From Amoebophrya sp. A120 (Eukaryota > Protista > Dinoflagellata): a stretch of 17,582 bases of DNA. The notes beneath the pieces are model-generated. The model was not told the DNA's origin. It searched no databases and was given only the letters and a program-made list of their open reading frames with translations. The stretch spans positions 1 through 17,582 of the forward strand of contig CAJINV010000023.1 of NCBI GenBank assembly GCA_905178155.1, given 5' to 3'. A program made the translations under genes and the position numbers. Below are positions 1 through 17,582 of the stretch, piece by piece. Numbering within the stretch: the first letter of the stretch is position 1; each line of letters starts with the position of its first letter.

Positions 1-232
1 GGGCCCTGGTTTGTTGCCTCCCTTCCCGTCTTCGGCAGTTGAAAGCAAAAGAAACTGCCAAAGGGCGTCGCGGGTTTTCTGATTTGGCCAAGACGATGAA
101 ACTTCTACAAACAAAAGCGGCGGAGCGGTAAGAAACCGCCCGGGAGACCAAAAGCGGAAATGTTGCGGCGGGGGCCCGGGTTTGTTGCCTCCCTTCCCGT
201 CTTCGGCAGTTGAAAGCAAAAGAGACTGCCAA
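1..232. repeat. End of a 171-bp tandem satellite array (~1.4 units visible, truncated by window start)
   Basis: Anchor TTTGTTGCC at 10 and 181 (period 171). Same sequence and orientation as the array at 10790-13068. Confidence 0.95.
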
Positions 233-554
233 CGTGTGGGAGTAATATAGAGCGAGCGAAGGCCGTTCCGTGTGGAAGTAATATCAGCGGCGGCTTCAGC
301 TCTGCTCTTCTTGGTCATGTCCTTGAGGGGAACCGCGGAGAGGGGTGCTAGTTCTGCTTTTTCATATGTTCGGAACCGACGGACGCGCCAAGAAATTCCG
401 GTCCTCCAAGTCGCCGGATGAGCATGGTTCCAGGAGCAGCAACGCTAAGTATCTAGATGAAAGCTGTTTTATACTTTACGTTTTTCCTCACTTCAGCATC
501 AGCTTCACAACCAGGAAAAGCTCGACGGAGAACCATGCATGCTATACAGTAGTG

Positions 555-791
555 TCAACCTACTCCATCTACAGCAAGAGCCTGTGAATAGTGGTGCTGG
601 TGCTGCTCAAGCGAGATTATCTCAGCAGCGCCACTCCGTGCAAATAATTGTTTTGTCGCTGCGCCGCGAGATAACCCAACCGGGTTTGCTGAGATGGCGT
701 AACGACGCTTGGTGTCGGTGTGATGAAGAGGATGGTTAAAAAGAACAGTTTTCGTCGCAATATAATCGCGCCCCACGTCCAGCACGACCAC
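555..791 (-). CDS. Possible exon of an unidentified minus-strand gene
   Basis: Protein-like translation (VVLDVGRDYIATKTVLFNHPLHH...). No recognised motif; boundaries unknown. Confidence 0.2.
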   Translation of the reverse strand: MVVLDVGRDYIATKTVLFNHPLHHTDTKRRYAISANPVGLSRGAATKQLFARSGAAEIISLEQHQHHYSQALAVDGVG

Positions 792-2075
792 AGCGACGGT
801 TTGGCCACCGGACCCTCCACGAGCCGCACGTCCGCAGAGGAGGATGACTAGGTAGCATGAAGTACACCAGGGGAAGGGGCGGTGGAGTAGTGGGCACGCT
901 ATCTGATCTTACTTGTTGAAACAGAAAACGAATCGTATATACACATACAACTCAAATTGAAATTATTGAAAAATACCTTACAGTTTCGATTCGTCGTGTA
1001 CAATTTTTGAGGTGCATATAATGAAGTAAAGGCTGCGACACCAACGCCAGTTCGTGTTTAGTCGTTATCTGTCTTTTTCACAGTTGTTCATTTTCACGCA
1101 CATAATTTTTTTTTGGGGGTCCGGCAGACTTATAAATGCGGCTTCGATCGTCTTTAAGCCGAAAGGAAATATAATGACATGCGCTGATGTTCGCTACTGG
1201 GCAAAGCAGCTGTACATGACCTGTACAATTCATCATGTGAAGAGATAGAGACGTCCATGCGTTTTCATGTTTGTACATCATATTCACGCTCGCATGCGTG
1301 CCAAGCCGCAGTGCCGTTCTTCCGAAGCGATGCAGGGGTCTCTGACTCTGACAGACTTGTTACGGCAACCGCTTCCCCTTGTGTTCGACGCTGTTGCGAG
1401 GGCTGGCGTCAGCACTTATGCCAAAGGAGATCCGTTTTGAGTCTGACATAACCATTAGCGTAGCCACGTTCTAGGCACGGTCTGATAACGCCCGGACCGG
1501 CAGGCTCCACAGAAAATACAGTGGGCTCGTTTTGCATGCGATCTCCGGCTCTGTTACTTCCTTTGTCTTTATCGTGTTCTTTTTATTCTCTCTATGCCAG
1601 CAAGCTCAGAAAGAAGCTCAGAAAGAAGATAAAGTTTTCCCATGCGAAAAAATTTGGCTTTCATCGCGAAAACCATCTGCCGCAAAAAAAAAATGATATA
1701 CAACCTTTCTTGCTGATCGATCTTCGTATGAACACTTTTTTACTAGCTCGACGCGTTTCTGATTGATACGACATTTTTAGTAGCAGGCGTAAGTACTTAA
1801 GTACAACCTTTGGGCGGTTTCAATTTAAAATATACTAGCATTATCAAGATAGAGGTCTCGTCTGTTTCCGAAGAAAGGGGCGAGTACATCTACGCACGTA
1901 CACAGGCTCAGCCACCGTTCCTACTCATTCTGAAGAAGAACAACTTGCGGAGCAAGACAGCGTGACCCTGGGGAGGATCGGAAAGCCTCGAGCATCTGAC
2001 GTACGACGAGAAACAGCAACCTCTTGTCGCTCGCTCTTTCGTGTCTCTGAGCGCACTTCTGACACGACTATCATA

Positions 2076-2946
2076 ATGTGGGCTCTGCTTGCTCACACAT
2101 TTTGGCTCCACTTTTTCGTGGGTCTTTTTTGCGTGGACTTTTTTGTGGCCGCACCTGCACCGTTTCCGAAGGAAAAACTGGAAAAACTGCGCTTCCCCCT
2201 CGAAGAAGTCAACCCCGCGACAGGAAAAATGGAGCCGCGGCGGATGCCCTGCTGGACTTGCACACAAGAAGAACTGGAAGTATTGCGGGAAAAATTTTAC
2301 CCCGATTTAGCCGAGCGCGTCGACCGTCTCACGAAAATTGTTTGCAGCAATCCGGGCCTACAGACCGAAGTCCCGATGCAGCAAAATCATCTCCAGATTT
2401 GCAAGGTCGATACCGCGGCGAAGAAGAAGGACGCTGCGTATCAAATGTAAAAATGTCTGGGTCTGGAAGATTGGAACTTGTGATGCTAACTTTGGGCTCT
2501 AGAAAAATCTGTAATGCATGACCAGCAAGAGGAGTCTAGTTTGTGCTACGCGGGGTGGGCGTTTGTCATGCGGAGTAGGCATTAGGATCCGGAAGCCCTC
2601 TCAAAATCTGTGATGCGCGATCGTGCATTACAGAGAGACATCCTGGGCCATGCAAAACATGCATGACAAATCTCAGAATCTTCCAGGCCCAGACATTTTT
2701 ACATTTGAATTTGGTACCGCGCTGACAAACACAAGTTCCGCCACTTGGGCCGGCTTCGTCGACAGGAGCCAGGCACTTGTGGACTTAAAACAAGTGCTGG
2801 AAAAGTCATCCGCTTACGCGCGGCAGCGCGGTTCTACGTCCATCCTCGGGCGCTTGTTGCCTTTCCTGTCCGACCAACCACTGCCCGAGAAACGGATCGA
2901 CACGGCGGCAACCAGTCCACCTTTGCGGCCAGAACAAGAACTGTGA
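2076..2946 (+). CDS. Hypothetical protein with hydrophobic N-terminus (signal peptide/anchor-like), split by a family-A insertion; inferred exons 2076-2437 and 2721-2946
   Basis: ATG at 2076 (MWALLAHTFWLHFFVGLFCVDFFVAA...). Removing 283 nt (element plus one 5-bp TSD) joins ORF 1962..2450 to ORF 2623..2946 in frame: ...KKKDAA|LTNTSSATWAGF...EQEL*. Confidence 0.65.
2439..2716. mobile_element. Family-A MITE / candidate introner, copy 1 (278 bp)
   Basis: 32-bp inverted repeat with 1 mismatch (2441-2472 TCAAATGTAAAAATGTCTGGGTCTGGAAGATT vs 2677-2708). A small duplication ATTTGA/ATTTGG lies at the right end. Flanks CTGCG / CCGCG (4/5). Confidence 0.85.
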
Positions 2947-3022
2947 GCAAGGACCATTGACCCTTCTATTTCTATACGATAACGATTATTGTCCCAGTAA
3001 CCTGTAGCAAGAGAGGTTTTTG

Positions 3023-3061
3023 ATGCGATTTTATCATGCCCCGGGCATGATAGAATCGCAT
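3023..3061. repeat. Near-perfect 39-bp palindrome (19-bp arms)
   Basis: ATGCGATTTTATCATGCCC-C-GGGCATGATAGAATCGCAT, with one T.G pair. Confidence 0.85.
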
Positions 3062-3761
3062 GGTATGATTCGCAAACTGAATCCCAGCGTAATGCTAGCC
3101 TTTATATATTTGCGTGTAGTGATTACTACAAAAGTCCGGATCTATTATTTACGGGCTTTATGGATGCACAGTCGCATTTTTCGCTGATGAGAAACCAATT
3201 TGTGAGGATTTCTGAACAAAAATTTGAAAATAACTTCTCGTGCGCAAAGACGTGATCGAAAGATTTACGATCGTTTCCTGATAATTTGGGGAACATGATA
3301 TCATGGTTCTAATCTCAGCACGGTGTTCCTGCTTACAGGCAAACTCTCCACCAACACCAGCTTCAACTACCTTCAAAGACCCCTCGGTGTTTTTTTAAAA
3401 GTTTTTTCCCGCGAGTGAGGTCGCGGCTCTCTGGGCCAAAGAACGTCTACGTTTCTTTCTGTTTTTTCTTCCCGATTTTTGAGGAGTACGTGTGACGTAA
3501 GTGAGCTGCTTTTCTGCAGTTTGATACAACAAAGAGATTCTACTTCTTGGTTGACATCTTCCTTTCCGATGAACGGCTGCCGGCATCTTGCCGTGATGAA
3601 AGCAAGATCATTCAGAGGTTTCGTTGTCGATGCCGCACTCTCCTGATACGTTTATGTGAACGTGAGTCAGTTGTATACTGTATTTGTTGCAGCTTCGCGC
3701 GTCCTGACTGTGGCTGTGTAAAGACATACGAAGCGGGGTATCGTCGTGACCAGCGCCAGAG

Positions 3762-4228
3762 ATGAGCATGCTGGACAAGAAAGCGGGCAGCGGGTCAGGG
3801 CGGCGTCCCGTGGCTGTGGCCCCACTCAGTATGAACGAGCTTGAGTCCTACATCTTTTTCGCGTTTCGCGAGTACGCGCAAGCAGAACCGGACTGGGAAC
3901 GCGCGGTGTGTGGTGCTTTGCGAGCGCTGCTAGAATTCGCCAAGTCCCGTGAACAGCTGCTGGAAGAGCAGCAGCCCTTCACCGTTTGCCGCGTCGGAAT
4001 CGAGAGGTTTCGAGCCAGTCGGGCTGGGAACGACAAACAGGACGAATCCGGGCTGGGAATGACAAACAGGACGAATCCGGATTTCCATATTCTATTGTAA
4101 CGTTTGAGATTGTAACAGCTGAGCAGGCTATATTGCAATGCATATGCGTCCGAGTGACTTCTCCGGTTGTCCCGACCGCGTCACCGATATCAAAAGCAAA
4201 AGTCCCTCCTCCCCATATCGAAAGGTAG
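3762..4228 (+). CDS. Hypothetical protein/exons split by a family-B insertion; inferred pieces 3762-3984 and 4080-4228
   Basis: Protein-like MSMLDKKAGSGSGRRPVAVAPLSMNELESYIFFAFREY... Collapsing the CCG direct repeat (95 nt) continues in frame: ...QQPFT|GFPYSIVTFEIVTAEQAIL... The last ~40 nt run into the element at 4188, so the true 3' end is uncertain. Confidence 0.5.
3985..4079 (+). mobile_element. Family-B short insertion, copy 1 (95 nt, with an internal 29-bp tandem duplication)
   Basis: TTTGCCGCGTCGGAATCGAGAGGTTTCGAGCCAGT followed by (CGGGCTGGGAAYGACAAACAGGACGAATC)x2 at 4020-4048 and 4049-4077. Shared with 5579-5642 and 8110-8168. Confidence 0.8.
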
Positions 4229-4508
4229 ATTTGCGATGCTGGATTTGCTTACACAAATCAGCTCTGTCTTGCAATGGAGGACTGCAGGCACATGCCAACC
4301 CTGGGCAGCGAGGTTGTGACATAGGCCACTAGCAGTACAAATGTCCACACTGTAGGTCCAACAGCATCACAAACCGCGCGCACAATGCGGAGCAGCCTGG
4401 GGGGTTGCCTTCTTGCAAGACAGAGACGATTTGTGGTCACAAATCAGCATTGCAAATTTTCTGTGGCCTCCTTTTCGATATGGGGAGGGGGGATTTTTCC
4501 TCACGATA
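4188..4508. mobile_element. MITE with long (~95-bp) imperfect TIRs, TATC...GATA termini and a perfect 5-bp TSD (ACCGA)
   Basis: Left arm CCTCCCCATATCGAAA...ATTTGCGATGCTG...CACAAATC..CTCTGTCTTGCAA is mirrored by TTGCAAGACAGAG..GATTTGTG...CAGCATTGCAAAT...TTTCGATATGGGGAGG. ACCGA at 4183-4187 and 4509-4513. Confidence 0.8.
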
Positions 4509-4634
4509 ACCGAGAGCCCTCTGCGCTTGAATGCGGTCGCTACCTGCGACGCGATGTTGTAAAGTGAGGGAGACAGCTTGCTCAGCTGCTGCTGCACACA
4601 AACTACTAGATATATTTATTACTTTCAAGATACT

Positions 4635-4727
4635 TATCAAAGTGAGGCATCTCCTCTATTTCCCATATCAAAATCGAAACTTCCGATGCTAAAGATTTGC
4701 GTACATCACAAATGAGGTGTTTCTTGC
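4635..4727 (+). repeat. Degenerate extra copy of the left arm of the 4188-4508 element
   Basis: TATCAAA...CCCATATC...CGATGCT...GATTTGCGTACA.CACAAAT...TCTTGC is colinear with 4188-4275. No partner arm identified. Confidence 0.55.
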
Positions 4728-5163
4728 TGTAAGGAGTTGCAGTCAGATAAGAATTATCTGCCCGCTTGGGGGCGTAAGAATAATGGACTTGATGTGGCGA
4801 TGTTGTTTGTACGTAAAAAGATTACATTTGTAATGTTGGTTGAAAGAACAATTTCACTTTCGAACCGCCTCGTGGTGTTTACCCCCGTTCTGGCATGGGT
4901 CGTTGTTCGTGCAGCTTTTGAAGATCCTTCTTCTGATGCGATTCCAAGACCCCGCCGCGTCTAGCAGATCTTTTCCCTCTTGACTACGCGGTCCTTGTGG
5001 AGACGTTTTAGTACTCAGGATATACCTGAAGTAGACTTATCAAACAAAAAAAGTTCGTCACGATCACTCATGCGCATTTTTGCAATACCAAACTGTCTGT
5101 CATGCGTGAAAATGCATCACAGCCAAACTTCATAAGGGATTTCCCTACTGTTTCTGCAATACA

Positions 5164-5759
5164 AGAAAAACCTATGATGTGGTGGGCACGTTTTTTCTCA
5201 GGATAAAAGATGTTCTGGATTTTGTGCTCGGAGACGTCCGAGACCTTGGGCGGCTGTGCGAGGTATCAAATGTAAATATGTCTGGGTCTGCAAGATCCAT
5301 CGCCATGTTTGTCATGCATATTTTGCGTGACCCACGATGTCTGTAATGCAAGTCCTAGCATCACAGATTTTTACGGGGCTTCCTGATGCTTATTCCGCAT
5401 GAGAAATGCCGTCCCCGCGTAGCACAAACTGGGCAACTTCTCTTGCTGGTCATGCTGCAATACACATTTTTTTGGAATCCAAAAACAGCATCACAAGTTT
5501 GCGTCCTCCCAAACATCCAGGGATATTTGCAGTTCATACGAGGTTTTCAAAAAGCTGGACCTGGTGATCCACGCGGCCGGTCGGAATCGAGAGGTTTCGA
5601 GCCAGTCGGGCTGGGAACGACAAACAGGACGAATCCGCGGCCTCTTTATTTGCTATTGCTAATGTCAATTTAGGTATGCTCCTGCTTCTACAGGAACGAA
5701 AAATGCGCCGCGTTTCTTTTGAGAACCGACCCGAGTTTTGTAACTTGAGCACTATGTAG
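5164..5759 (+). CDS. Fragment of an extended-SDR / NAD-dependent epimerase-dehydratase-like gene; inferred exons 5164-5262, 5543-5578, 5643-5759 (gene or pseudogene)
   Basis: Joined translation RKTYDVVGTFFLRIKDVLDFVLGDVRDLGRLCE|VFKKLDLVIHAA|SLFAIANVNLGMLLLLQERKMRRVSF... matches the GDxxD...DxVIHxAA...NxxG pattern of extended SDRs. The TGxxGxxG and YxxxK motifs were not found. Confidence 0.6.
5264..5538. mobile_element. Family-A MITE / candidate introner, copy 2 (275 bp, inverted relative to copy 1)
   Basis: Starts TATCAAATGTAAATATGTCTGGGTCTG and ends TATTTGCAGTTCATA. Internal CCCCGCGTAGCACAAACT is the reverse complement of copy 1's AGTTTGTGCTACGCGGGG. Perfect TSD CGAGG at 5259-5263 and 5539-5543. 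Gives a GT...AG intron at 5263-5542. Confidence 0.85.
5579..5642 (+). mobile_element. Family-B short insertion, copy 2 (64 nt)
   Basis: GTCGGAATCGAGAGGTTTCGAGCCAGTCGGGCTGGGAACGACAAACAGGACGAATCCG is identical to copy 1. Bounded by the direct repeat CGCGGCC (5572-5578 and 5636-5642). Confidence 0.8.
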
Positions 5760-6082
5760 CTGTTCACCATCATGACCGATGCCGAAGATATTAGTTGTGG
5801 CGCTTTCAAAGCCAGACTTGCCGCAGTCCGATTCGAAAATTTGTGATGCTGATACATTTAAGTACATTCTACGCACGGGGACTTGCGTGTCTCCAATTTG
5901 CATCGCAAAAACCTCCACACCCCTCTGGAGTTGTCATAGGAGCTGCACTTTTCTCACGCACAGCCAACTTCGAAGAGCGACAACCCCGAGCCGACGAAAT
6001 CGCAACCGGAATGGCCAGATGACTCGCAGAAAAGCGGCGAGGGCGCAATGGACACGAAATCAACCAAGGGGGGGAAACATGT

Positions 6083-6650
6083 GACTGAAATTAGAAACCA
6101 AGCCTGTTTGCGACCTGTCTGAAATTCGAAGGCCCTGGTCTGAGATTCAATTTCAGACTTGTTGGTCCTAATTTCAGACTACACGGAAACAGGCTTGGCT
6201 TCTAATTTCAGACAGCTTCCCCGCGTTGTTTGTCGTGCCAAAATGGCTTCCGCAGGAGAAGGCAAGGGGATTTTCTGGGCTTCCCTGTGGCCCGGGTTGA
6301 GCCAAACACGAAAAAAACCTGTCTGAATTTAGAAACCAAGCCTGTTTGCGACCTGTCTGAAATTCGAGGTCTCTGGTCTGAAATTCAATTTCAGACTTGC
6401 TGGTCCTAATTTCAGACTACGCGGAAACAGGCTTGGTTTCTAATTTCAGACAGCTTCCCTGCGTTGTTTGTCATGCCAAAATGGCTTCCGCGGGAGAAGG
6501 CCAGGGGGTTTTCTGGGCTTCCCTGTTGCCCGGGTTGAGCCAAACACGAAAAAAACGTGTCTGAAATGAGAAACCAAGCCTGTTTGCGACCTGTCTGAAA
6601 TTCGAGGTCTCTGGTCTGAAATTCAATCTCAGACTTGTCTGAAATTCGAG
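6083..6650. repeat. 238-bp tandem repeat (~2.4 units), each full unit containing a ~135-bp fold-back
   Basis: Anchor AGAAACCAAG at 6093, 6331 and 6569. ~30-bp inverted arms (6319-6348 vs 6424-6453) with iterated GTCTGAAATT / AATTTCAGAC decamers. Confidence 0.92.
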
Positions 6651-7281
6651 CGCGTCATCGCTTTCAGGGTGAGTCAGAGTGTGTGGATAACTTGCGTGTC
6701 TTTTGATATTACCGGCATTACATTCACATTGGTGAGGGATGGGAGTTGCGTCATCTTGTCGGTTGTTTGTTCTTTTTTTGTCTAAAGTGCCGCTCTCGTT
6801 GCGGGTGGTATTCGGTCGGTTTTCTGTTCTTGATATCACTGATGTCAATGTCAATGTCAACTGAAGATAAATGATGAAAATCGAATGGCATAAGGTGTGT
6901 ATTAAGTTTAAGTAGCAGATGACTTATATTAGACAGACACCTAGCACCAGCTTTATTTTCCAGTCTTCATATAGGTTCGAGGATCGGCGCTCCTGCGCAC
7001 ACTGTTTTCCCACTCCCCCCTTTACTTTCTCCTACGACGATGTTGGAAATGAAATTGAAATTCGAAACTTATGATATGCTTACTACGGTATAATTGTTAT
7101 GAGAAGATTAATTCTCGAACGGTCGTCATATCCCACGACTCTGGTTTGATGACGCAACACGAACACCTATCTGTGGCAGTAGACACTAGGTAGCACCACA
7201 AGAACAGCACGAGAGAGCTGCCGTTTTCGGTTCTTGTTTGACATCGTAAAACGCTGACACAGCACAGAAAAACAAAGAAGT

Positions 7282-8555
7282 ATGGCGGGGCCTAAGCCGA
7301 AGGCGAAGGCGGGAGGAATCGCGGCAGCAGCTGCCAAAGCAAAGCCGGGTGGCGCAGCGATCCCAAAAGCCAAAGCCAAACACAAGGCTGGCGTGGGTGC
7401 TGCACCTGCTCCGGCTGCAGTGCCAAATATCGGAGCTGTCCCGAAGGCGGCGCCACCGTCGTTGCAGGCACTTCTTGGACGCTGGCTGCCATGCGGCGCG
7501 CAGGACCCAGTGCCAGTGCAGGTCAAACCGAAAGGAAAACCGAAGGCGGTTATCAACCTCCCCAATACGGTACCAGACGAGCACCAGGATCCGGAAGGGC
7601 ATGCCGCATACAAGAAACTGCTCCAGAAGCTGAAGAAACAGGAGTGGAGCAGCAACCACTACCAGAAGCAGAAACTGGAAGAAGAAAATAATCGAAACAT
7701 GCTCCTCGCTGCCAGTTTCATTATTTTGTGCAGCATAGCTGTTTTTTTCGCCAGCTCCTCCTCTACTACTTCATCATCTCCTTCTCCTGTGGTCCAACAC
7801 GGCAAAGAAACATCCAAAAACTCCACCTGCAAGAATTCCGTCGACCACAACGCAACATGCCCAGGTGGAGCTCCGGAGGAATTTTTGTCGGCAGTCAACA
7901 CTGCGAATGCCACATTGCTTCTAAAAACCGAGCAGGAGCAGTTGCCGTTTTCAGACGCAGTAAACGTAAACACCACCAGTAACCAGCGTGTGCACAACGC
8001 CTCGACGCCGGCGATCCCCTCGTCCATTACTATTGCAGCCCCATCCGTACAACCATTTTTCTCCTCGGTGACGAACGAAACCGCGGACGCGCACATAATC
8101 ACGACGGCAACTTTTGCCGCGTCGGTGCCAGTCGGGCTGGGAATGACAAACAGGACGAATCCGCGGCAGCTGGTGGAGGCGAAGTCCCCCCGTCGCGCGA
8201 CAACGGGAGCGATGGCCAAGGAGCTGGTAAAAAGATGGCGTCAGCCAACATCAAGGCGAGGAAAATGGTGGCGATGGTGAAAGCGGCATCGCAGCCGGCC
8301 CCAGTCAACCGCCAAGGACGAAGCCAAGATGAAAAGAAGGATGCCCGGTCGCGTAGCAGGAGCCGAAGCGCACGGAAGCCGTCTGCGCAGAAGGAGAAAA
8401 GCGCGTTTCCGAAAAACAATCCCTCGTCACGCGTCGGTTTTATGGGGTTCTCAAACGTTACACTCTCAACGGTTAGTCGCAGTGCGATAGATTTGGTATG
8501 CAAAATTACTATAAGGACCGACGCGATCAAGCTGCTTCGCATGACAAATTCTTGA
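7282..8555 (+). CDS. Low-complexity Ala/Lys/Pro-rich hypothetical protein with one predicted TM segment and an RS-rich tract; inferred exons 7282-8109 and 8169-8555
   Basis: Long ORF from ATG 7282 with hydrophobic MLLAASFIILCSIAVFFA. Removing the 59-nt family-B insert switches to the frame of ORF 8235..8555: ...IITTA|AGGGEVPPSRDNGSDGQGAGKKMASANIK...RSRSRSRS. Confidence 0.65.
8110..8168 (+). mobile_element. Family-B short insertion, copy 3 (59 nt, internally deleted)
   Basis: TTTGCCGCGTCGG...GCCAGTCGGGCTGGGAATGACAAACAGGACGAATCCG. Direct repeat CGGCA at 8105-8109 and 8164-8168. 7-bp inverted repeat TGCCGCG/CGCGGCA. Confidence 0.8.
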
Positions 8556-9965
8556 AGGGGTAAACAGCATGATGACCGAGGCGTGCCAGACCTGTAATGC
8601 AAGACGCGCAGACCCCCACCTTTCACTTCTGCTAAATTCATCCTGCGCCGCGAATTCATGTAGCAAGAACAGCTGAGAATGTAGCAGTTTCGAATCCCAT
8701 ATGCATAGGTGTTGGGAAGTTGCCACTAGCAAACCTCGCAGCGTCGAGTGGTTCCGCGAGCGCAGCATCGTCGGCTGTTTCCTCGGCACGAAGAGCGAAT
8801 AGTAAGGCACGTGCAGCGGCTGTGAAAGGACCAGCGTCATCTATCCTGTGTAAAAACGTCGCCACCCCAGAGCCAAGCTGGGATCTTTGCAAGACAAATC
8901 GAACATCTTTAGGACTCAAGCATGAAATACGCAGTGTAGTCGTGCCTAGCTCGTTCAAACGCATCAAAAATCCTGTCTTTTATCCTGATTAGCGCATGAC
9001 AAATTTTCAAACGCCACTCCTACTAGACAATGCCTCTCATGCAGAGCCGCACCACACATCACATTCTGAGCATCTAGATCTGCATGACAACTCTGGCATG
9101 GGGGCGCTTTTGCAAAGGATATTGTCTTCCTCGTCTTCAGCGTCTTCTAGTGCGGGTCCAGCTTCCGGTATGACACGCAAAATAAAAGTGTTACTTGCCG
9201 TTGCAGGGCATTGTTTTGCAGAAAAAGCTGCATGACAGACGAGCTCAGTGATGTCCGGAACACTTGCGAGCCTATTGTAATCATGATCGTTTCATTCAAT
9301 TACAACTGGTATCTGCTTCTGCAACATCGGCATTGCGATTGCAGGCATTCGTGTTGCTCTTGCTCAATCTGCGAAAGTGCTGTGTGTTTGTGGCATTTTT
9401 TTTTTTGGATAGTCGGCGCCCTGCTACCGAAAAACACCGGAAGCGAAGTTGGTCGTCTGGGCAGTGGTGCTAAATCCGCGGCGTCGCCAGGTATCCAGGA
9501 ACAAACGCAGTGTCGTTGTATACGGAAATCTGTATTGCAGGAGGACCTAATATGCGAATGCGACCGACAAGGACATTCCAATTTTATTGTGATGCTGGAT
9601 AGGCATCGTCGTGTTCGTGCTACTTCATGAGCTACGTCCACACGCCAGGTCTTCTGTTACTAACTTTGCGTGAGAACAACCCTTTGGTACCAAGCAAGAC
9701 AACTTGGTGATCATGTTACACCGACACAACTTTTTCCCGGGAAACCACTATTAGGAGAAATGCTGGCCGACCGCGAGTATCCTGTGCAACTGCAGTATCG
9801 CATGTGATTAAATTCCAGTACTGCAACATGATATGTCTCGTTTCTACCAGTGCCATAGCCGAACCGGCACTTCAAAATTTCGTTTTGCTACAATTTCCTT
9901 CATATGAAATCCAATGTCGTTGGAATTTGTACTACCACATTGATGCACATGCAGCTTGCGCAGTG

Positions 9966-10790
9966 CATAACAATGGTGCGGAAGGGGACGAGACGCAGGG
10001 GGAGGTCGAGGACAAGGACACGGCGCAAACACTTCACCTACTCTCGTATCTGCTTCCTCTCTATCAAATGTAGACATGTCTGGGCCTGGAAGAGTCCGCG
10101 TGTTTGTCATGCACCTTCTACAGCTGCAGATAGCTTTGCTGCGTGCTGCATTCGAGACACTTATTATAGGTGTCTGGAATGCTCGCAAAGCATATACAGT
10201 TTTATTTGCGAAGCTTTCTTATTCTTGTTTGATGCCCCTTATTGTGCATTGGAAATTCGCTATCTGTGCAACAACGGTTGGGCAGCTTTCGGCACTCACA
10301 CAACACAGATTTTTTTTTAAGTCTTTATCCGCTCGAGAATTTTAGCATTACAAGTTGGAACTCTTCCAGACCCAGATCTATAGTATCTATTTGCAATTCA
10401 TACTTTCTGCCGGCTTGCAAAAACCAGTAAGAAGTCGTACTTCGACGTAGAAGTTGTGCGCGGCGGTTCCGGAAAAATAGAAATGGCCACACAGTGCAGC
10501 GTCGCTCTCAAGTGGCTGAAGAACCTAGGTGCCCAGCTCAGCGAGCGATGCGGGGTAGCGGAGGACGGAGAGAGCGGCCTTTGGGATTTCCCGCCGGACG
10601 AGATCGGAAAGGCCGTCATGGAGCCACTCGGCGCGGCGATTGGCCCCGGGTCCGGCAGGGATTTCACGTTCTACGCCGACGCGAAGGCCCTCGGGTTCCC
10701 TTTGGTGCAGTTCCACATCCTGCCGGGATACACGCTGCTCCGGACATGCAGCATGGCTTACGTAGCTGCGCCAATGGTCTCAATTGGAAC
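9966..10790 (+). CDS. Hypothetical protein, exons ~9966-10060 and 10407-~10790, split by family-A copy 3 and running into the satellite
   Basis: Removing 346 nt gives ...GAEGDETQGEVEDKDTAQTLHLLSYLLPL|CRLAKTSKKSYFDVEVVRGGSGKIEMATQCSVALKWLKNLG... with no stop. GC-rich codons; start unknown. Confidence 0.6.
10062..10402. mobile_element. Family-A MITE / candidate introner, copy 3 (341 bp)
   Basis: Left end TATCAAATGTAGACATGTCTGGGCCTGGAAGAGT; right end ACTCTTCCAGACCCAGA (10360-10376)...TATTTGCAATTCATA. Flanks CTCTC / CTTTC (4/5). Confidence 0.8.
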
Positions 10791-13068
10791 GACAGCGGAA
10801 ATGCTACGGCGGGGGCCCTGGTTTGTTGCCTCCCTTCCCGCTTTCGGCAGTTGAAAGCAAAGGAAATTACCAAAGGGCGCCGCGGGTTTTCTGCGTTGGC
10901 CAAGGGGATGGAATTTTTGCAAACAAAAGCGGCGGAACGGTAAGAAACCGCCCGGGAGACCGACAGCGGAAGTGCTACGGTGGGGGCCCTGGTTTGTTGC
11001 CTCCCTTCCCGTCTTCGGCAGTTGAAAGCGAAGGAAATCGAGCAAGGGCGTCGCGGGTTTTCCGATTTGGCCAAGGGGATGGAATTTTTGCAAACAAAAG
11101 TGGCGGAGCGGTAAGAAGCCGCCCGGGAGGCCGAGAGCGGAAATGCTACGGCGGGGGCCCTCGTTTGTTGCCCCCCTTCCCGCCTTCGGCTGTTGAAAGC
11201 ATACAAAGGAAATTGCCAAAGGGCGGCGCGGGTTTTCTGATTTGGCCCAGGCGGTGAAATTTTTGCAAACAAAAGCGGCGGAACGGTAAGAAACCGCCCG
11301 GGAGACCGGAGGCGGAAATGCTACGGCGGGGGCCCTGGTTTGTTGCCCCCCTTCCCGTCTCCGGCAGTTGAAAGCAAAGGAAATCGCCAAAGGGCCGCGC
11401 GGGTTTTCCGATTTGGCAAAGGGGATGGAATTTTTGCAAACAAAAGTGGCGGAGCGGTAAGAAACCGCCCGGGGGACCGAAAGCGGAAACGCTACGGCGG
11501 GGGCCCTGGTTTGTTGCCCCCCTTCCCGTCTTCGGCAGTGGAAAGCAAAGGAAATTGCCAAAGGGCCGCGCGGGTTTTCCGATTTGGCCAAGGGGATGAA
11601 ATTTTTGCAAACAAAATTGGCGGAACGGTAAGAAGCCGCCCAGGAGACCAAGAGCGGAAATGCTACGGCGGGGGCCCTGGTTTGTTGCCTCCCTTCCCGC
11701 CTTCGGCAGCCAGTTGCTTGGACGGAAAGGAAATTACCAAAGGGCGCCGCGGGTTTTCTGATTTGGCCCAGGGGATGAAATTTTTGCAAACAAAAGTGGC
11801 GGAACGGTAAGAAACCGCCCGGGAGACCGAGCGCGGAAATGCTACGACGGGGGCCCTGGTTTGTTGCCCCCCTTCCCGTCTTCGGCAGTTGAAAGCAAAG
11901 GAAACTGCCAAAGGGCCTCGCGGGTTTTCCGATTTGGCCAAGGGGATGGAATTTTTGCAAACAAAAGCGGCGGAGCGGTAAGAAACCGCCCGGGAGACCG
12001 AAAGCGGAAACGCTACGGCGGGCGGGGGCCCTGGTTTGTTGCCCCCCCTTCCCGTCTTCGGCAGTTGAAAGCAAAGGAAACCGCCGAAGGGCCTCGCGGG
12101 TTTTCCGATTTGGCCAAGGGGATGAAATTTTTGCAAACAAAAGTGGCGGAGCGGTAAGAAACCGCCCGGGAGACCGAGGGCGGAAAGGCTACGGCGGGGG
12201 CCCTGGTTTGTTGCCTCCCTTCCCGCCTTCGTTCGGCAGTTGAAAGCAAAGGAAATTGCCAAAGGGCGTTGCGGGTTTTCTGATTTGGCCCAGAAGATGA
12301 AACTTTTGCAAACAAAAGTGGCGGAACGGTAACAAACCGCCCGGGAGACCGAAAGCGGAAACGCTATGGCGAAGGCCCTGGCTTGTTGCCTGCCTTCCCG
12401 ACCGTCTTCGGCAGTTGAAAGCAAAGGAAATCGCCAAAGGGCGGCGCAGGTTTTCTGATTTGGCCAAGGGGATGGAATTTTTGCAAACAAAAGAGGCGGA
12501 GCGGTAAGGAACCGCCCGGGAGACCGACGGCGGAAATGCTACGGCGGGGGCCCTGGTTTGTTGCCTCCCGTCCCGCCTTCGATCGGCAGTTGAAAGCAAG
12601 CAAAGGAAATTGCCAAAGGGCGTCGCGGGTTTTCTGATTTGGCCAAGGGGATGGAAATTTTGTAAACAAAAGGGGCGGAACGGTAAGAAACCGCCCGGGA
12701 GCCCGAAAGCGGAAACGCTACGCCGGGGGCCCTGGTTTGTCGCCTCCCTTCCCGCCCGGCAAAGGAGATTGCCAAAGGTTAGCGCGTGTTCTCTGATTTG
12801 GCCAAGGGGATGAAATTTTTGCAGACAAAAGTGGCGGAACGGTAAGAAACCTACCGCCCGGGAGACCGAAAGCGGAAACGCTACGGCGGGGGCCCTGGTT
12901 TCTTTGTTGCCTCCCTCCCCGCCTTCGGCAGTTGCAAGCAAGCTAAGGAAAATGCCAAGGGGTGTCTTGGGTTTTCTTATTTGGCCCAGGGGATGGAATT
13001 TTCGCAAACAAAATTGGCGGAACGGTAAGAAACCGCCCGGGAGACCGAAAGCGGAAATGCTACGACGG
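10790..13068. repeat. 171-bp tandem satellite, ~13 units
   Basis: Anchor (TTTGTTGCC or variant) at 10822, 10993, 11164, 11339, 11510, 11681, 11860, 12035, 12207, 12382, 12557, 12736 and 12899. Confidence 0.97.
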
Positions 13069-13089
13069 TCCCCCCTGCCGCAAGGGGGG

Positions 13090-13564
13090 GGGCTGCGAAG
13101 TGCGCACGCGCGCGCAGTTGCAAAAGCGGCAAGGCAGCGGCCGGCCCTCTCCCATGCCAGGCAAGGCAGTGCCGCTGGCGGTTCCGTTGCGTTTTCTTTT
13201 TCCTTCGGCGATGTTACGCGGCACAAGTTTGCGCATACCATGTCGCGCGCGGTCTTTAATCAGAGCGAGGCCGACTCTTTTCCAACGGTGTTCATACATT
13301 GGCGAGGCGTTTATTGGTCTCCCGCCTGAAATCAAAGCCGATCCAATTGAGATCATTGGGCCAGTTGCGCAAGCCATAGGGGCCTCATGCGGCTTCATAG
13401 CGGCGCGGCAGCGGAAGTCAGCAAAAAGCTCGGGCTTTGCTGAGAAAGGTCTGCAGGGCTATCGGGTTTGTAGCATTTGCTTCAGGGTTATCCGAGGGAG
13501 AGGCACCACCTCAGTCACACTTGAGCACTTTTGCAGCACGATAGTAGGGGGCGCGCACGCGTAG
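13090..13564 (+). pseudogene. Coding-like segment with a 4-bp frameshift, similar to the exon before the satellite
   Basis: ...HTMSRAVFNQSEADSFPTVF continues as IGEAFIGLPPEIKADPIEIIGPVAQAIGASCGF... if CATA of CATA-CATT (13293-13300) is removed. Confidence 0.4.
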
Positions 13565-13877
13565 AACATTCAAGATTCATGCGTGGCAGCTTTGCTGCCC
13601 CTTCCTGTTTCGAGCAGGCCAGGCTTTTAACTTGCAAAACCTGCAATAGTGTGGCTGCGAAGATGTTTTTACCCTGGGTACGCGTCTTCGCCGGCTCGAG
13701 CCTGGTCGTGCAGCATATGGGACCCTCACGCGTTGCGCTCCCACCTGTAACTGTATACACAATTTGCCATGCTGAAAAATTACGATTACCAAAAGTCGCC
13801 ACGCGATCTATCACGCTACTTCGCATCGCAAACTCCCTCTTGAAGAACTGAACAGCATTGATACCTTCGCCGAATTT

Positions 13878-14348
13878 GTGATGCAAGAGTCCTCGCATGC
13901 ACCCTCCCCCCCCTTCACTTTTGGTTTTGGTGCTTCTATTCTTGGATTACAAATTTCTGTAACAGTTGACAATGATGTAAGTGTAACGCTTCAGTACTCC
14001 ATACAGCAGGCCTCCAGACCGGAGACGAGCTGCTACCATAACTTTCTCCCGTCTACCCGTGTTGCACTGGTGAACGCAGAGGAACGCAATGAAGCTCTGC
14101 GGCTGGCGAGCGATTTTCTCGGTGGCATTCAGAAGACCAACGCGGGCGCCCGGCGATGGACACCCGTGACCCGGGGGAATGACGTCGTGCGGTTCGACCA
14201 AGTCCAGCGCGGGAGGTTTGTCCCCGTTGCCGTCCAAAAAAGGGTAGCGACGCAGAAGCAGTTTTCCAAGGAGGTCGGGACTATGCGGAGGCTGTCGCTA
14301 GACAAAGCCGTCGACAAGCTGGATGAATATGGCCTGTTCAGCGGTTAG
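13878..14348 (+). CDS. Hypothetical protein, probably a terminal exon (coding signal clearest from ~14055)
   Basis: Protein-like RVALVNAEERNEALRLASDFLGG...LDKAVDKLDEYGLFSG* with GC-rich third positions. No family recognised. Confidence 0.5.
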   Translation: MMQESSHAPSPPFTFGFGASILGLQISVTVDNDVSVTLQYSIQQASRPETSCYHNFLPSTRVALVNAEERNEALRLASDFLGGIQKTNAGARRWTPVTRGNDVVRFDQVQRGRFVPVAVQKRVATQKQFSKEVGTMRRLSLDKAVDKLDEYGLFSG

Positions 14349-14439
14349 GAAGGACAATCTCAATCGGAACAGCTAGAGAGTAGACCCCGAATCTGTCTTG
14401 CATCAGTGGCAAATAAAAGAAGAAAGTCTACTCTAGGTG

Positions 14440-14460
14440 GCAGCAGCAGCAGCAGCAGCA
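14440..14460. repeat. (GCA)7 microsatellite
   Basis: Read directly from the sequence. Confidence 0.9.
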
Positions 14461-14706
14461 AGTCGCTGTGCTGGCAAGCCTGCTATGAATCTAGATGCGG
14501 TTTTTTATGACTCCGGAAATTTGTCATGCTGAGTAAGGAGACAGGTGGCGTCTACGGTAGGCAACCACTGCAGCTCATTCCCTCTCGTCTGCGCCAAAAA
14601 CTTGTTCCGGTCGATATTCCTTCATCTTCTGAGAAGGTCATATGGAAGGCGATGAAAAACGACAGCGCCGCGCAATCGTCGTGCTGATCGACCTTGACGT
14701 GGAGAA

Positions 14707-14868
14707 TATGCATTGCAAATGTGTCAACATGGTCTGGAAGTGTCCGAGTTTGTGATGCTAGGACTGGTCGATACAAAAATCTGTATTGCATGGCCGGGGG
14801 AAAACGTGCCTACCTGCATCCCGAACCTTAATGCAAGCTTCCGGATCCAGACATATTTCTAATCCATA
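14707..14868. mobile_element. Degenerate short family-A element
   Basis: TATGCATTGCAAAT...GGTCTGGAAG...TTGTGATGCTA...AAAAATCTGTATTGCATG is colinear with copy 1. Right end CTTCCGGATCCAGACATATTT...CATA. No TSD visible. Confidence 0.6.
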
Positions 14869-15089
14869 TCGCACCTGCGCTTTCAACTATGGCAACGAAA
14901 ATTTGATGAGTCAAGATCAAGCAGAAGTGTTCACAAAACAAGGAGCTGCTGTCTGACGATTTCGTTTTGTAGTTTCTTGCATGTTGCTTTGCAACGAGAA
15001 TGCGTTCGCAAAGTTACAGCATGTCTTGCCGACGTGCACTTGGAGGCGTGACTGCAGCGACTCAAAGAGATTTTCACTTGGATGACTAT

Positions 15090-15396
15090 TATCCACTGCA
15101 ATTAAGAAAAATAGTAGATTCTCTAGATCTGGGTCTGGGAAAATGGAAGTTGTGATGCTGGCCTTGCATAGCTGCCAAATCTTTGTTGCATGATGAACAC
15201 CAGTTGTGCAGCTTCATCTGGGATGTGAAAACTCACTCGGTAGTGCGCGCTGCGCATGAGCAAGCGTTCATGCTGAAAAGTTGTCCTGGTTGGCTGCACT
15301 GACCAGGCTTTCACGCATCGACGACTGAATATATCCTCAGAATTCCAGACCGGGATTACTAGGATTAGCATACTAATTATTGATTTGCATTTCATA
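15090..15396. mobile_element. Degenerate family-A element
   Basis: TATCCACTGCAA...TCTGGGTCTGGGAAAATGGAAGTTGTGATGCT...TTCCAGACC...ATTTGCATTTCATA. Flanks ACTAT / GCTTT (3/5). Confidence 0.55.
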
Positions 15397-16149
15397 GCTT
15401 TGCTCTTACTGCGGGGCAAGCCTCCTGTCGCGATTTATTTCGGGTTTTTTTCGAGGCAAGACTGAGCGGCTGAGAGCCCAGTTTCGCGATGCGTTGACGT
15501 ACGTGTGGGGAAGGAGAGCTATGAACAAGCAAACTTCTCAGGGTCGGCGGCAAGATCAGCTGTCTTCAGCGCTTAATTTGATCCAGCTTTTGTACCATAT
15601 GCATATACGACTTGCGTTTGCATTCGGCTGACCGGTGTTCATCCTTACCGCCCCCTTCCGGCTTGGCGTTATTCCGTTACTCCGCTTTACAACCATAAAA
15701 AGCAGAGGAGGTGGTGGTAGAGGTAGAGCACAGGCAATGATAAACTGATGCAAGGATTATAGTTATAATTGAAGTACTTATGAATATGAAGACATCAAAA
15801 TACCACATAGGTGTTCATATTTTTACTGCGCAATGATCTTCCGAATGTTTATTCACACTGCATACGTGTTCTCCACATGGACCACAAGGCCGAGAATGTC
15901 TGCGTGCGTGAGGAAGTATCAGCTGGAAACCTGTTTGGGCCTGTAATGCTGGTAATGGAGAGCTTATCGGGCTTGTCTTGCTTCCAAACTGGTCCTGAAA
16001 ATGCGTTTTTTTTTCCAGACCAAAATAACGTAGTATGTATGTAAAACGCGTGTTGATAGCTAGGTAGCTGCACCACGAGAACGCACGATATAAACTTCTC
16101 ATGCTTGGTGAGGGGAGTTTTTTATTTTTTCGTTTCACTCATCCAGCTC

Positions 16150-16186
16150 AACTTCCAGACCAACCAGGGAAAGTTTACATTTGATA
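16150..16186. repeat. Right-hand family-A TIR remnant
   Basis: CTTCCAGACCAACCAG...TTTACATTTGATA is the reverse complement of the family-A terminus TATCAAATGTAAA. Left end uncertain, possibly ~16034. Confidence 0.55.
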
Positions 16187-16490
16187 CGGGGCCGACGGGT
16201 ACCAATTGCGGTTGATCGAGTATGGGGCTCTCAAGCGTTCTTGCGCTCTGAAATCTCAACTATTGCGATGCATAGGTGACGCAAGATTAACAAAACTGAA
16301 GGGGGGAAGATTCCGGGTTTTGCAGTACAAACTTAGTTCCGTGTTGTTAAGCGCACCAAAAACTTGTCATGCGAAGTAGGGTGATGATCGCGTGGAGGGG
16401 GCTAGTAAATTTGCATCACATCTTCATGCAACTACAGCTGGGAGTGTAAAGATTTGAGAAAAGCATATCAACTTTGGATCGGCGATCTTC

Positions 16491-16865
16491 GTGGCGGACG
16501 AAACTACGGTGGATTTGCATGAGCTCGCATACACCAAACCCTTCGTGGGGGAGGCGCTCAACAAACACGAACGGGAACAGCCGGACATGGCCGTACCAGC
16601 GGCAACCTTGCGCGAGCATGAGAAATTCACCGCCATGGCACTGGACCGCCTGCTGGCAGCGCCGAATGGGGGTGACCTGCTGCTGGAGATCGTGGAGCAA
16701 AAGGATGCGTGGATCAAAGACGAAGAGCGCGAAACCGGAAGTGGACGCCGCCGACTGCTTGCGGTACTCGATCCAACCGGGCAAGAACTGGCACGGCACG
16801 AGTTTCACGAGTTGCAGGAAACACAGCTACAAAAAGCGCGGAGCGAGGACCTAGATCCCCTTTAG
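16491..16865 (+). CDS. Hypothetical protein, probably a terminal exon
   Basis: 124-codon ORF with acidic/helical composition and GC-rich third positions. The frame is open slightly upstream of the GTG. No family recognised. Confidence 0.55.
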   Translation: MADETTVDLHELAYTKPFVGEALNKHEREQPDMAVPAATLREHEKFTAMALDRLLAAPNGGDLLLEIVEQKDAWIKDEERETGSGRRRLLAVLDPTGQELARHEFHELQETQLQKARSEDLDPL

Positions 16866-17090
16866 GTCCCCTTCCGTATCGATTGCAAATGGAAGTGCGT
16901 CTGGATTTTTACATTGTTACTGTCAAACACGAACGCCCCGCCGTGTTGTGCCACAGCTACTGAAAGAAAGTTCGTCAGCATCAATTTAATCAGCGCCGGT
17001 CTCAAAAGTATTTATATGGAATCGAGAGCCTGGCCCTTCTTATTTTTCTCCTTCCCATGTGTGTCTAAGTAGCGGAAGATGGGCCTACCC

Positions 17091-17113
17091 CCGCAAACGC
17101 ATTTTGGCTCAGG
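17091..17113 (+). other. Possible dinoflagellate spliced-leader relic
   Basis: CCGCAAACGCATTTTGGCTCAGG vs DinoSL CCGTAGCCATTTTGGCTCAAG; 12-nt exact core CATTTTGGCTCA at 17100-17111. Confidence 0.4.
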
Positions 17114-17127
17114 GAGCAGGCCCATAC

Positions 17128-17582
17128 CCCGTTCCGTCGGCGAGTCGAGCGGAGGGGGGAGTAACCTTGCTGGCCGCCCACTTTGACACCGGAAACAGGT
17201 CGGGAACCCGTTCCGGCGTGCTGGCGTTTCTTTCCGCCTGGCGCGTCGGGCGGATGGGGGTGAAGCCTTTTTTTCCATTTTGGCACCTCGCTCCGGAAAC
17301 AGGGTGGGAATCCGTTCCGGCGTGCTGGTATTTCTTTCCGCTCGACGCGCCGGGCGTCGAGCGGAAGGGGGGTCAACCTTTTTGGCCCACTTTGTCACCG
17401 GAAAAAGGGTGGGAACCCGTTCCGGCGTGCTGGTGTTTCTTTCCGCTCGACCCCCCGGGGGTCGAGCGGAAGGGGCGCCAACCTTCCTGGGCCACTTTTA
17501 CACCGGAAACAGGGCGGGAACCCGTTCCGGCGTGCTGGTGTTTCTTTCCGCTCGACCCCCCGGGGGTCGAGCGGAAGGGGCG
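17128..17582. repeat. ~105-bp tandem repeat with an internal GC hairpin (runs off the window end)
   Basis: Anchor TTCCGGCGTG at 17211, 17315, 17420 and 17525. Hairpins at 17233-17254, 17336-17366, 17441-17471 and 17546-17576. Confidence 0.93.

What the first reader, a model, noticed from the sequence alone, without database searches (positions are those of the whole stretch)
2434..10407. Candidate introner family A: MITEs with TATC...GATA ends and 5-bp TSDs whose removal restores reading frames
Seen: three related TIR elements (2439-2716, 5264-5538, 10062-10402) are flanked by 5-bp direct repeats (CTGCG/CCGCG, CGAGG/CGAGG, CTCTC/CTTTC). Removing element plus one TSD (283, 280 and 346 nt, none a multiple of 3) joins protein-like frames in all three. 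Only copy 2 can use GT-AG; copy 1 would be GT...GC and copy 3 has neither site. Known: non-autonomous DNA transposons generate introns (introners), and Amoebophrya has many non-canonical introns with inverted and direct repeats. Inference: the elements are diverged while the flanking frames stay open, which suggests they are spliced out, perhaps guided by TIR pairing rather than splice dinucleotides. I do not recognise a transposon superfamily with this terminus and TSD combination.
Basis: partly seen in the sequence, partly recalled or inferred. Interest (0 to 1): 0.85.

Follow-up and report, generated by a model that had tools for sequence, protein, structure and literature searches.

The report
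Known Amoebophrya introners, fixed 1+4 cut
These small transposon copies in genes of the marine parasite Amoebophrya A120 are its already published 'introner' introns: two of the three are missing from transcript-like assemblies, and every cut that can be placed lies one base before and four bases after the element's end motifs, which is likely how the cell removes them without the usual GT-AG signals.

Summary
The three elements are real and match the published introners of Amoebophrya sp. A120 (TAT+7+AAA inverted ends, 5-bp repeats; Farhat 2021). Two public A120 proteins match this window's spliced frames exactly. Likely-RNA contigs skip copy 3 (346 nt, no canonical ends) and copy 1 (277 nt, GT..GG, not 283). 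Splicing of copy 2 was not shown. Right ends are not GATA. Among 101 related copies, 86 have a perfect, sequence-free 5-bp duplication. What this window adds is a register: the intron starts 1 nt before the left motif and ends 4 nt after the right one. That rule opens a 759-codon kinase-like frame across 15 introns, one holding a 2.3-kb satellite, and is the only register that costs no identity with a paralog. In copy 1 a 6-nt duplication inside the right end moved the cut inward, so the cut follows the internal motif, not the element end or the duplication. The machine is inferred (likely a loosened spliceosome); hairpin guidance got no support. No transposase was found. Earlier unreviewed notes of this scan report the same elements and 1+4 cut elsewhere in this genome.

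The parts
2076..2946 (+). Gene 1 CDS, exons 2076-2437 and 2715-2946, 197 aa, no Pfam family
   Evidence: Identical to public A120 protein P0001; run X3 contig covers 1883-2437 joined to 2715-3264
2439..2716 (.). Copy 1 as a DNA element; its right end carries a 6-nt tandem duplication, so the inner end motif stops at 2710; TSD CTGCG/CCGCG
   Evidence: the duplication history is inferred by parsimony against the young end
2438..2714 (+). Intron of copy 1, 277 nt, GT..GG, one possible cut only
   Evidence: record 10; P0001
4188..4508 (.). Related element, TSD ACCGA/ACCGA; a form lacking element plus 5 nt stands in DNA-like run X1 (likely an empty-site paralog) and in X3
   Evidence: joint 4182>4509, skip 326, both=5, shorter side 30 nt
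5038..5205 (.).
   Evidence: end motifs; high summed depth in X1
5264..5538 (.). Copy 2, perfect TSD CGAGG; predicted intron 5263-5542 (280 nt, GT..AG); splicing not shown
   Evidence: no joint listed
8235..16865 (+). Predicted kinase-like gene (first ATG 8235 of a frame open from 7986; 676 aa) with 15 element-derived introns, 6600 of 8880 nt intronic
   Evidence: paralog P0003 (weak Pkinase hit); public model P0002 covers only 9760-13564
8440..8705 (+). Predicted intron TT..CA (element 8441-8701)
   Evidence: rule and frame
8841..9125 (+). Predicted intron CT..GT (element 8842-9121)
   Evidence: rule and frame
9168..9415 (+). Predicted intron GT..CG (element 9169-9411)
   Evidence: rule and frame; X6 piece begins at 9414 with 5 unlaid letters before it
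9491..9748 (+). Intron GT..AC, 258 nt, one possible cut (element 9492-9744)
   Evidence: X6 joint
9777..9973 (+). Intron GT..AA, 197 nt, two possible cuts (element 9778-9969)
   Evidence: X6 joint; P0002
10062..10402 (.). Copy 3, TSD CTCTC/CTTTC
10061..10406 (+). Intron of copy 3, 346 nt, CT..TT by the rule; all four possible cuts non-canonical
   Evidence: X5 and X6 joints; P0002; paralog has no gap there
10751..13382 (+). 2632-nt intron GC..GG: element 10752-13378 with 39-nt inverted ends that holds a 171-nt x 13 satellite (10790-13068)
13488..16471 (+). Eight further predicted introns of the kinase-like gene: 13488-13684, 13715-14007, 14327-14646, 14706-14872, 14887-15400 (two adjacent elements), 15519-15868, 15916-16190, 16220-16471 (this junction builds the Asp of the DFG motif)
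   Evidence: rule, frame and paralog only, no RNA laid

Best explanation
The elements are non-autonomous inverted-repeat transposon copies with a 5-bp target duplication that behave as introns in Amoebophrya A120 genes, and they are likely removed from pre-mRNA by a loosened spliceosome that counts from the element's own end motifs, cutting 1 nt before the left motif and 4 nt after the right one. Shown: 5-bp sequence-free duplication; skips in likely-RNA contigs; the register wherever a cut can be placed. Consequence (follows from the register): exactly element plus 5 nt leaves, so a new insertion in either orientation and at any target leaves the mRNA unchanged; afterwards 4 nt of the left repeat and 1 nt of the right repeat are exon, the other five are intron, and the two copies drift apart. 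Inferred: insertion by a DDE cut-and-paste transposase acting in trans (not found), with the repeated TGTNATGC box as a probable binding site; and spliceosomal chemistry, with the T of TAT standing in for the T of GT and the motif near the 3' end acting as a fixed-distance signal. End pairing may help but does not appear to be the ruler.
For: TSD: 86 of 101 paired copies have a perfect 5-bp repeat, 0 of 101 a 6- to 10-bp one, 81 different 5-mers among the 86; 176 of 238 in a wider set, 2 pairs in one shuffle. GT-AG is possible in any register on either strand for only 12 of 86. Of 228 elements with enough flank, 73 had coding-like flanks on one strand and 64 of these are in frame after removing element+5 (p 8e-22; 121 scored low, 34 disagreed on strand). 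RNA-like contigs: four skips in coding exons, all compatible with 1+4, two allowing one cut only; one X6 contig carries three skips in a row. Paralog P0003: across 15 junctions, register 1+4 scores best (705 vs 692, 697, 660, 654, 647) and is the only one losing no identity at the 9 informative junctions; each single 1-nt change of excision length brings stops (30 of 30). Copy 1: the cut follows the inner copy of a duplicated end and leaves two extra codons. For the spliceosome: +2 is T in 17 of 18 window introns and the exception is a GC start; G at +1 in 8 of 17 older window introns against 26 of 116 in the mostly young set; the paper finds most spliceosomal proteins and U2, U4, U5, U6 but no U1 in A120, and its nine commonest non-canonical A120 motifs all have T at +2.
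Against: No 3' AG is needed (1 of 18) and both orientations are used about equally (16 vs 12), which is odd for a spliceosome. In the 116 oriented loci 5' and 3' ends are equally conserved. The shift in copy 1 fits stem pairing just as well. Runs X3-X6 are one sample, contigs only, RNA by guess, with low depth at copy 3 (2.7 and 4), and they may not be independent of the public gene models. Several element ends (9411, 9744, 13716, 14328/14642, 16221/16467) were picked with help from the RNA pieces or the paralog, so the gene model is not a blind test. The paper's Fig. 3 legend calls splice sites variable relative to the hairpin.
Confidence: 0.6

Rival explanations
1. Same elements and same 1+4 register, but the cut is made by a structure-guided, non-spliceosomal endonuclease and ligase (or a protein ruler) that recognises the terminal stem with its 3-nt 3' overhang, as proposed for euglenid nonconventional introns.
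For: No conserved end dinucleotides; both orientations work; 7-13 of the 14 terminal positions can pair in 17 window introns; in copy 1 the cut sits at the same offset from the 32-bp stem as the rule predicts; a 2.6-kb intron with 39-nt inverted ends is cut exactly; U1 was not found in A120; Euglena has an analogous fixed-spacer code.
Against: No excess of G-U-preserving over A-C changes between ends (49 vs 40, p 0.40; two looser settings alike); in copy 3 the strong stem is 9 nt out of register with the cut and the computed fold does not pair its ends; older introns lean to G at +1.
Confidence: 0.3
2. The skips are DNA-level: empty alleles, paralogs or excision footprints in runs that are really DNA.
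For: Runs X3-X6 are RNA only by guess; the skip of element 4188-4508 also stands in DNA-like run X1.
Against: X3 cover is patchy and gene-shaped while X1 is flat at 23-34 over unique DNA and holds both flank-element junctions of copy 1; one contig has three skips with hybrid repeats that are neither ancestral copy; the frame is open only if all 15 are removed.
Confidence: 0.04
3. They are ordinary gene-killing MITE insertions and the open frames are chance.
For: Copy 2 lies in a short, partly duplicated frame with no Pfam hit and no listed joint; the kinase-like gene is thinly covered in the contigs.
Against: Skips in contigs, public proteins P0001 and P0002, 64 of 73 in-frame, a 759-codon frame with conserved kinase motifs.
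Confidence: 0.03

Closest known systems
Introner elements (IEs) / non-canonical introns of Amoebophrya sp. A120 (Farhat et al. 2021, PMC7789003)
   Same: Host (two public A120 proteins match the window's spliced frames exactly), end motif TAT + 7 nt + AAA, 3-5 nt direct repeats (5 bp in the Fig. S19 legend), about 240-nt length, varied splice dinucleotides, no coding capacity; copy 1's intron is already in the public gene model.
   Different: The paper calls splice sites variable relative to the hairpin and argues against transposase mobilisation in A120. Here the repeat is strictly 5 bp and sequence-free, as a DDE transposase would leave, and the cut has one register. Their remark that the commonest repeat has four nt upstream of the 5' end is compatible with that register; their figures were not seen.
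A120 introner families in Gozashti et al. 2025 (PMC12130899)
   Same: Many TIR-type introners in A120, tens per gene; family 38 has TIRs and an integrase-like stretch.
   Different: Could not link this family to a numbered one: a search of Dataset S2 for the strain name and the end motif found nothing useful; termini and TSD of family 38 were not in the text seen.
Euglenid nonconventional introns (PMC12501133; review PMC11282704)
   Same: MITE-like, no GT-AG, short inverted motif at fixed spacing from the cuts, 3' spacer longer than 5' spacer.
   Different: Motif CAG/CTG at +4..6 with an exon-start purine, shown by knock-in to be required; reported to leave as circles. Here the motif starts at +2, and need and product are untested.
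Introners of Symbiodinium, Polarella and Aureococcus (bioRxiv 2020.10.14.339549; PMC9860276)
   Same: TIR plus TSD elements whose removal takes one TSD-equivalent, some in both orientations.
   Different: In the classes read they carry or recruit GY/GA and AG sites from element or TSD, so targets are constrained; here targets are not.
IS3EU/GingerRoot and hAT5 transposons (PMC10045372, PMC12730594)
   Same: TA..TA termini (IS3EU); 5-bp TSD (hAT5).
   Different: IS3EU TSDs are usually 6 bp (0 of 101 here); hAT5 termini were not given in the passages read; no transposase here to compare.

Membership tests
Amoebophrya A120 introner elements | Located in the A120 genome | tested here: met
   P0001 and P0002, named A120 by their sources, are reproduced letter for letter from the window
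Amoebophrya A120 introner elements | Inverted repeat starting TAT, 7 variable nt, then at least AAA | tested here: met
   Left ends of copies 1 and 2 fit exactly, copy 3 has AGA; profile from 238 copies
Amoebophrya A120 introner elements | 3-5 nt direct repeats at the exon/intron border | tested here: met
   86 of 101 perfect 5 bp
Amoebophrya A120 introner elements | Removed from transcripts, mostly without GT-AG | tested here: met
   Copies 1 and 3 plus two neighbours skipped in likely-RNA contigs; copy 2 not shown
Amoebophrya A120 introner elements | Repeated in the genome | tested here: met
MITE (non-autonomous TIR DNA transposon) | TIRs, fixed-length TSD, no coding capacity, high copy | tested here: met
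   longest stop-free stretch in the 972-nt copy L031 is 86 aa
MITE (non-autonomous TIR DNA transposon) | Autonomous partner with the same ends and a transposase | not testable with these tools
   No genome held; records behind the loci not held
IS3EU/GingerRoot | TA..TA termini | tested here: met
IS3EU/GingerRoot | TSD usually 6 bp | tested here: not met
   0 of 101
hAT (hAT5 lineage) | 5-bp TSD | tested here: met
hAT (hAT5 lineage) | hAT transposase | not testable with these tools
   no autonomous copy in hand
Canonical U2 intron | GT/GC..AG ends | tested here: not met
   1 of 18 window introns ends AG; GT-AG possible for 12 of 86 young copies
Canonical U2 intron | Lariat intermediate, snRNP dependence | not testable with these tools
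   needs bench work or raw reads of the right strain
Euglenid nonconventional intron | CAG/CTG motif at +4..6 and -8..-6 | tested here: not met
   ends are TATS..SATA starting at +2

The most novel reading that the evidence does not exclude
A120 has one universal splicing code in which the transposon's end motif replaces both splice sites: the cut is measured 1 nt outside the left motif and 4 nt outside the right, whatever the bases there, the orientation or the length (150 nt to 2.6 kb). Any insertion of this transposon group is then scarless, the elements act as safe containers for satellites and other cargo inside exons, and the machine is either a U1-less spliceosome that has given up the 3' AG or a second, structure-reading splicing system.
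Probability: 0.55. Interest if true: 0.75.

Novelty: already known. Interest (0 to 1): 0.45.

Why it matters
How A120 removes the roughly two thirds of its introns that lack GT-AG was left open by the genome paper. A fixed 1+4 register turns that into something testable and usable: it predicts junctions from DNA alone (here it extends a 209-aa public model to a 676-aa kinase-like protein), explains why the paper's commonest motifs all have T at +2 and why the direct repeats decay, and gives exact positions to mutate. The strict 5-bp duplication argues for a transposase that the paper did not find. The elements themselves are not a new discovery.

Tried and rejected
Whole genome not held, so no genome-wide search of the window's own assembly; a search of the records behind the loci for an integrase family could not run. 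No RNA was laid on 10786-17582. Two viral contigs matches to the end motif are chance hits inside a long phage open frame. Pfam found nothing for 15 of 16 flanking frames and one sub-threshold hit, nothing for the two short exons around copy 2; PDB sequence search of the upstream one was empty. Their likeness to NAD-dependent epimerase/PseB motifs is recalled, not shown. Protein searches for longer relatives of 10405-10851 and of 7282-8277 were empty. A plain open-frame test on 45 copies was weak (17 vs 10-17 across excision lengths) and was replaced by a codon model. Direction of TSD mismatches was uninformative. G-U wobble test negative. A first guess at ends 9311 and 14358/14616 broke the frame and was replaced by 9411 and 14328/14642. 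Dataset S2 search uninformative. Look-up of earlier notes by sequence gave three unrelated notes.
Full report
Observation. Their right ends read ..TTGGTA..TTCATA and ..TTCATA, not GATA. They share internal sequence (copy 1 and copy 2 are 77% alike in opposite orientation) and an internal box, TGT(A/C/G)ATGC, found 31 times in the window against 1.64 in shuffles. Many more elements with ends of the form TAT(C/G)NNNTG(C/T)AAA lie in the window.

Identity. The genome paper on Amoebophrya A25 and A120 (PMC7789003; I read passages, sections 11 and 16 whole, supplement passages and part 3 of 5 of the supplement; no figures) describes A120 introner ends as TAT, seven less-conserved nucleotides and at least three As, with 3-5 nt direct repeats. 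Two public proteins labelled A120, P0001 and P0002, are reproduced letter for letter from the window once the elements are removed. The finding is therefore a member of a published system.

Target duplication. Of 152 distinct end matches, 142 had enough sequence to examine, 20 had no partner end, 1 had too short a flank, and the rest collapsed to 101 elements: 86 have a perfect 5-bp repeat, none a perfect repeat of 6-10 bp, and the 86 use 81 different 5-mers. A profile search gave 238 elements (2 in one shuffle), 176 with a perfect repeat. In run X1, which has flat depth like DNA, a contig lacks element 4188-4508 plus exactly 5 nt, likely an empty-site paralog. GT-AG is possible in any register on either strand for 12 of 86, or 28 with GC-AG, GA-AG and AT-AC. 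With a codon model trained on the same loci, 73 of 228 elements had coding-like flanks on one strand, and 64 of the 73 are in frame after removing element plus 5 nt.

Splicing. Run X3 has a 1106-nt contig covering 1883-2437 joined to 2715-3264: a 277-nt skip, GT..GG, with one possible cut. Runs X5 and X6 skip 346 nt at copy 3, with four possible cuts, none canonical; one X6 contig also skips 9491-9748 (GT..AC, one cut) and 197 nt at 9777. These runs are contigs of one sample, RNA by guess, at low depth for copy 3, and may not be independent of the public models. The raw RNA runs X9 and X10 did not cover the loci. No joint at copy 2 was among the 15 of 88 joints listed, so it is untested; its upstream exon is only about 50 nt, because 5038-5205 is another element.

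The register. All four coding skips fit one rule: first intron base 1 nt before the left TAT, last intron base 4 nt after the right ATA. Applied to 15 element intervals between 8441 and 16467 the rule gives one frame of 759 codons from 7986 with a single stop at its end; changing any one excision by 1 nt brings stops in 30 of 30 trials. The product aligns with paralog P0003, a weak Pkinase hit. Excising element plus 5 scores above plus 2 or plus 8, and among the six ways of splitting the 5 nt, 1+4 scores best and is the only one that loses no identity at the 9 informative junctions. The 2632-nt intron 10751-13382, which holds a 171-nt x 13 satellite, allows only this register, and the Asp of the kinase DFG motif is assembled from two diverged repeat copies only by 1+4 or 2+3. 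Caveat: several ends were located with help from RNA pieces or the paralog, two first guesses failed, and 14888-15396 is two adjacent elements treated as one intron. The paper's nine commonest A120 non-canonical motifs all have T at +2, as the rule predicts.

Copy 1 as a natural experiment. Young ends read ..TTTACATTTGATA. Copy 1 reads as the same end with a 6-nt tandem duplication before the final TA, followed by a 4-of-5 repeat. The cut falls 4 nt after the inner motif (2710), not after the element's true end (2716), so two codons are added; the one change in the now-exonic repeat is synonymous. The duplication history is inferred by parsimony. It shows that the ruler is the motif or stem, not the end or the repeat. 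It does not separate sequence reading from pairing.

Mechanism. For a loosened spliceosome: T at +2 in 17 of 18 window introns with the exception starting GC; G at +1 in 8 of 17 older introns against 26 of 116 mostly young ones; most spliceosome parts present in A120 by the paper, U1 missing; no G-U excess between ends (49 vs 40); the strong stem of copy 3 is 9 nt out of register. Against: no AG, both orientations, no 5'/3' asymmetry in the 116 oriented loci, and the Euglena precedent of a separate fixed-spacer code (PMC12501133, abstract and discussion read; review PMC11282704 section 6). I put about 0.6 on the first and 0.3 on the second; that the elements are spliced A120 introners with this register is about 0.9. 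Mobilisation by a DDE transposase is inferred from the fixed 5-bp repeat and from the box, which lies in the first 90 nt of 309 of 476 ends with peaks at 33-34 and 41-43; no transposase was found. IS3EU has TA ends but usually 6-bp repeats, hAT5 has 5-bp repeats (passages).

Novelty. The elements are published. I did not find the fixed register stated in searches or in the texts read (also passages of PMC12130899 and its SI, PMC9860276, and part 1 of 4 of bioRxiv 2020.10.14.339549); the genome paper's legend calls the sites variable, though one sentence on repeat position is compatible with it, and its figures S19-S25 could not be seen. I had reached the register before looking at this scan's notes (reading stated); those unreviewed notes report the same elements and the same cut many times elsewhere in this genome and are not counted as support. 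Verdict: already known, with a well-supported mechanistic detail; interest 0.45.

Noticed in passing
window 10751-13382: A 171-nt x 13 satellite sits wholly inside one element that the public model and the paralog show to be an intron; the same satellite runs off the window's left edge (1-232), and other tandem arrays (6085-6637, 238 nt; 17144-17580, 105 nt, after an element end at 16877) may be cargo of similar elements.
   Followed up: partly
window 8235-16865: Public model P0002 (209 aa) covers only the middle of what the rule predicts to be a 676-aa kinase-like gene; it has HMD where most kinases have HRD (recalled), as does paralog P0003.
   Followed up: partly
window 3993-4050, 5580-5637, 8127-8163: A 58-nt sequence (37 nt at the third site) recurs in three genes and is kept in likely-RNA contigs; origin unknown.
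   Followed up: no
window 7282-8280: A 333-codon frame from the ATG at 7282 overlaps the kinase-like frame in another phase, with thin contig cover; how the two connect is unresolved.
   Followed up: partly
window 14888-15396: Two elements separated by exactly 5 nt; the rule removes them either as two introns with a zero-length exon or as one.
   Followed up: partly
window 4536-4704 and 5404-5579: Both stretches look two-copy in run X1 (a second, diverged contig; doubled depth), so the middle of the window includes duplicated fragments.
   Followed up: no
L031 1501-2472: A 972-nt copy with a perfect 5-bp repeat and non-coding cargo.
   Followed up: partly
window 230-1900: Several unpaired or weak element ends (1018, 1282, 1543, 1768) suggest more introns of a gene not modelled here.
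   Followed up: no
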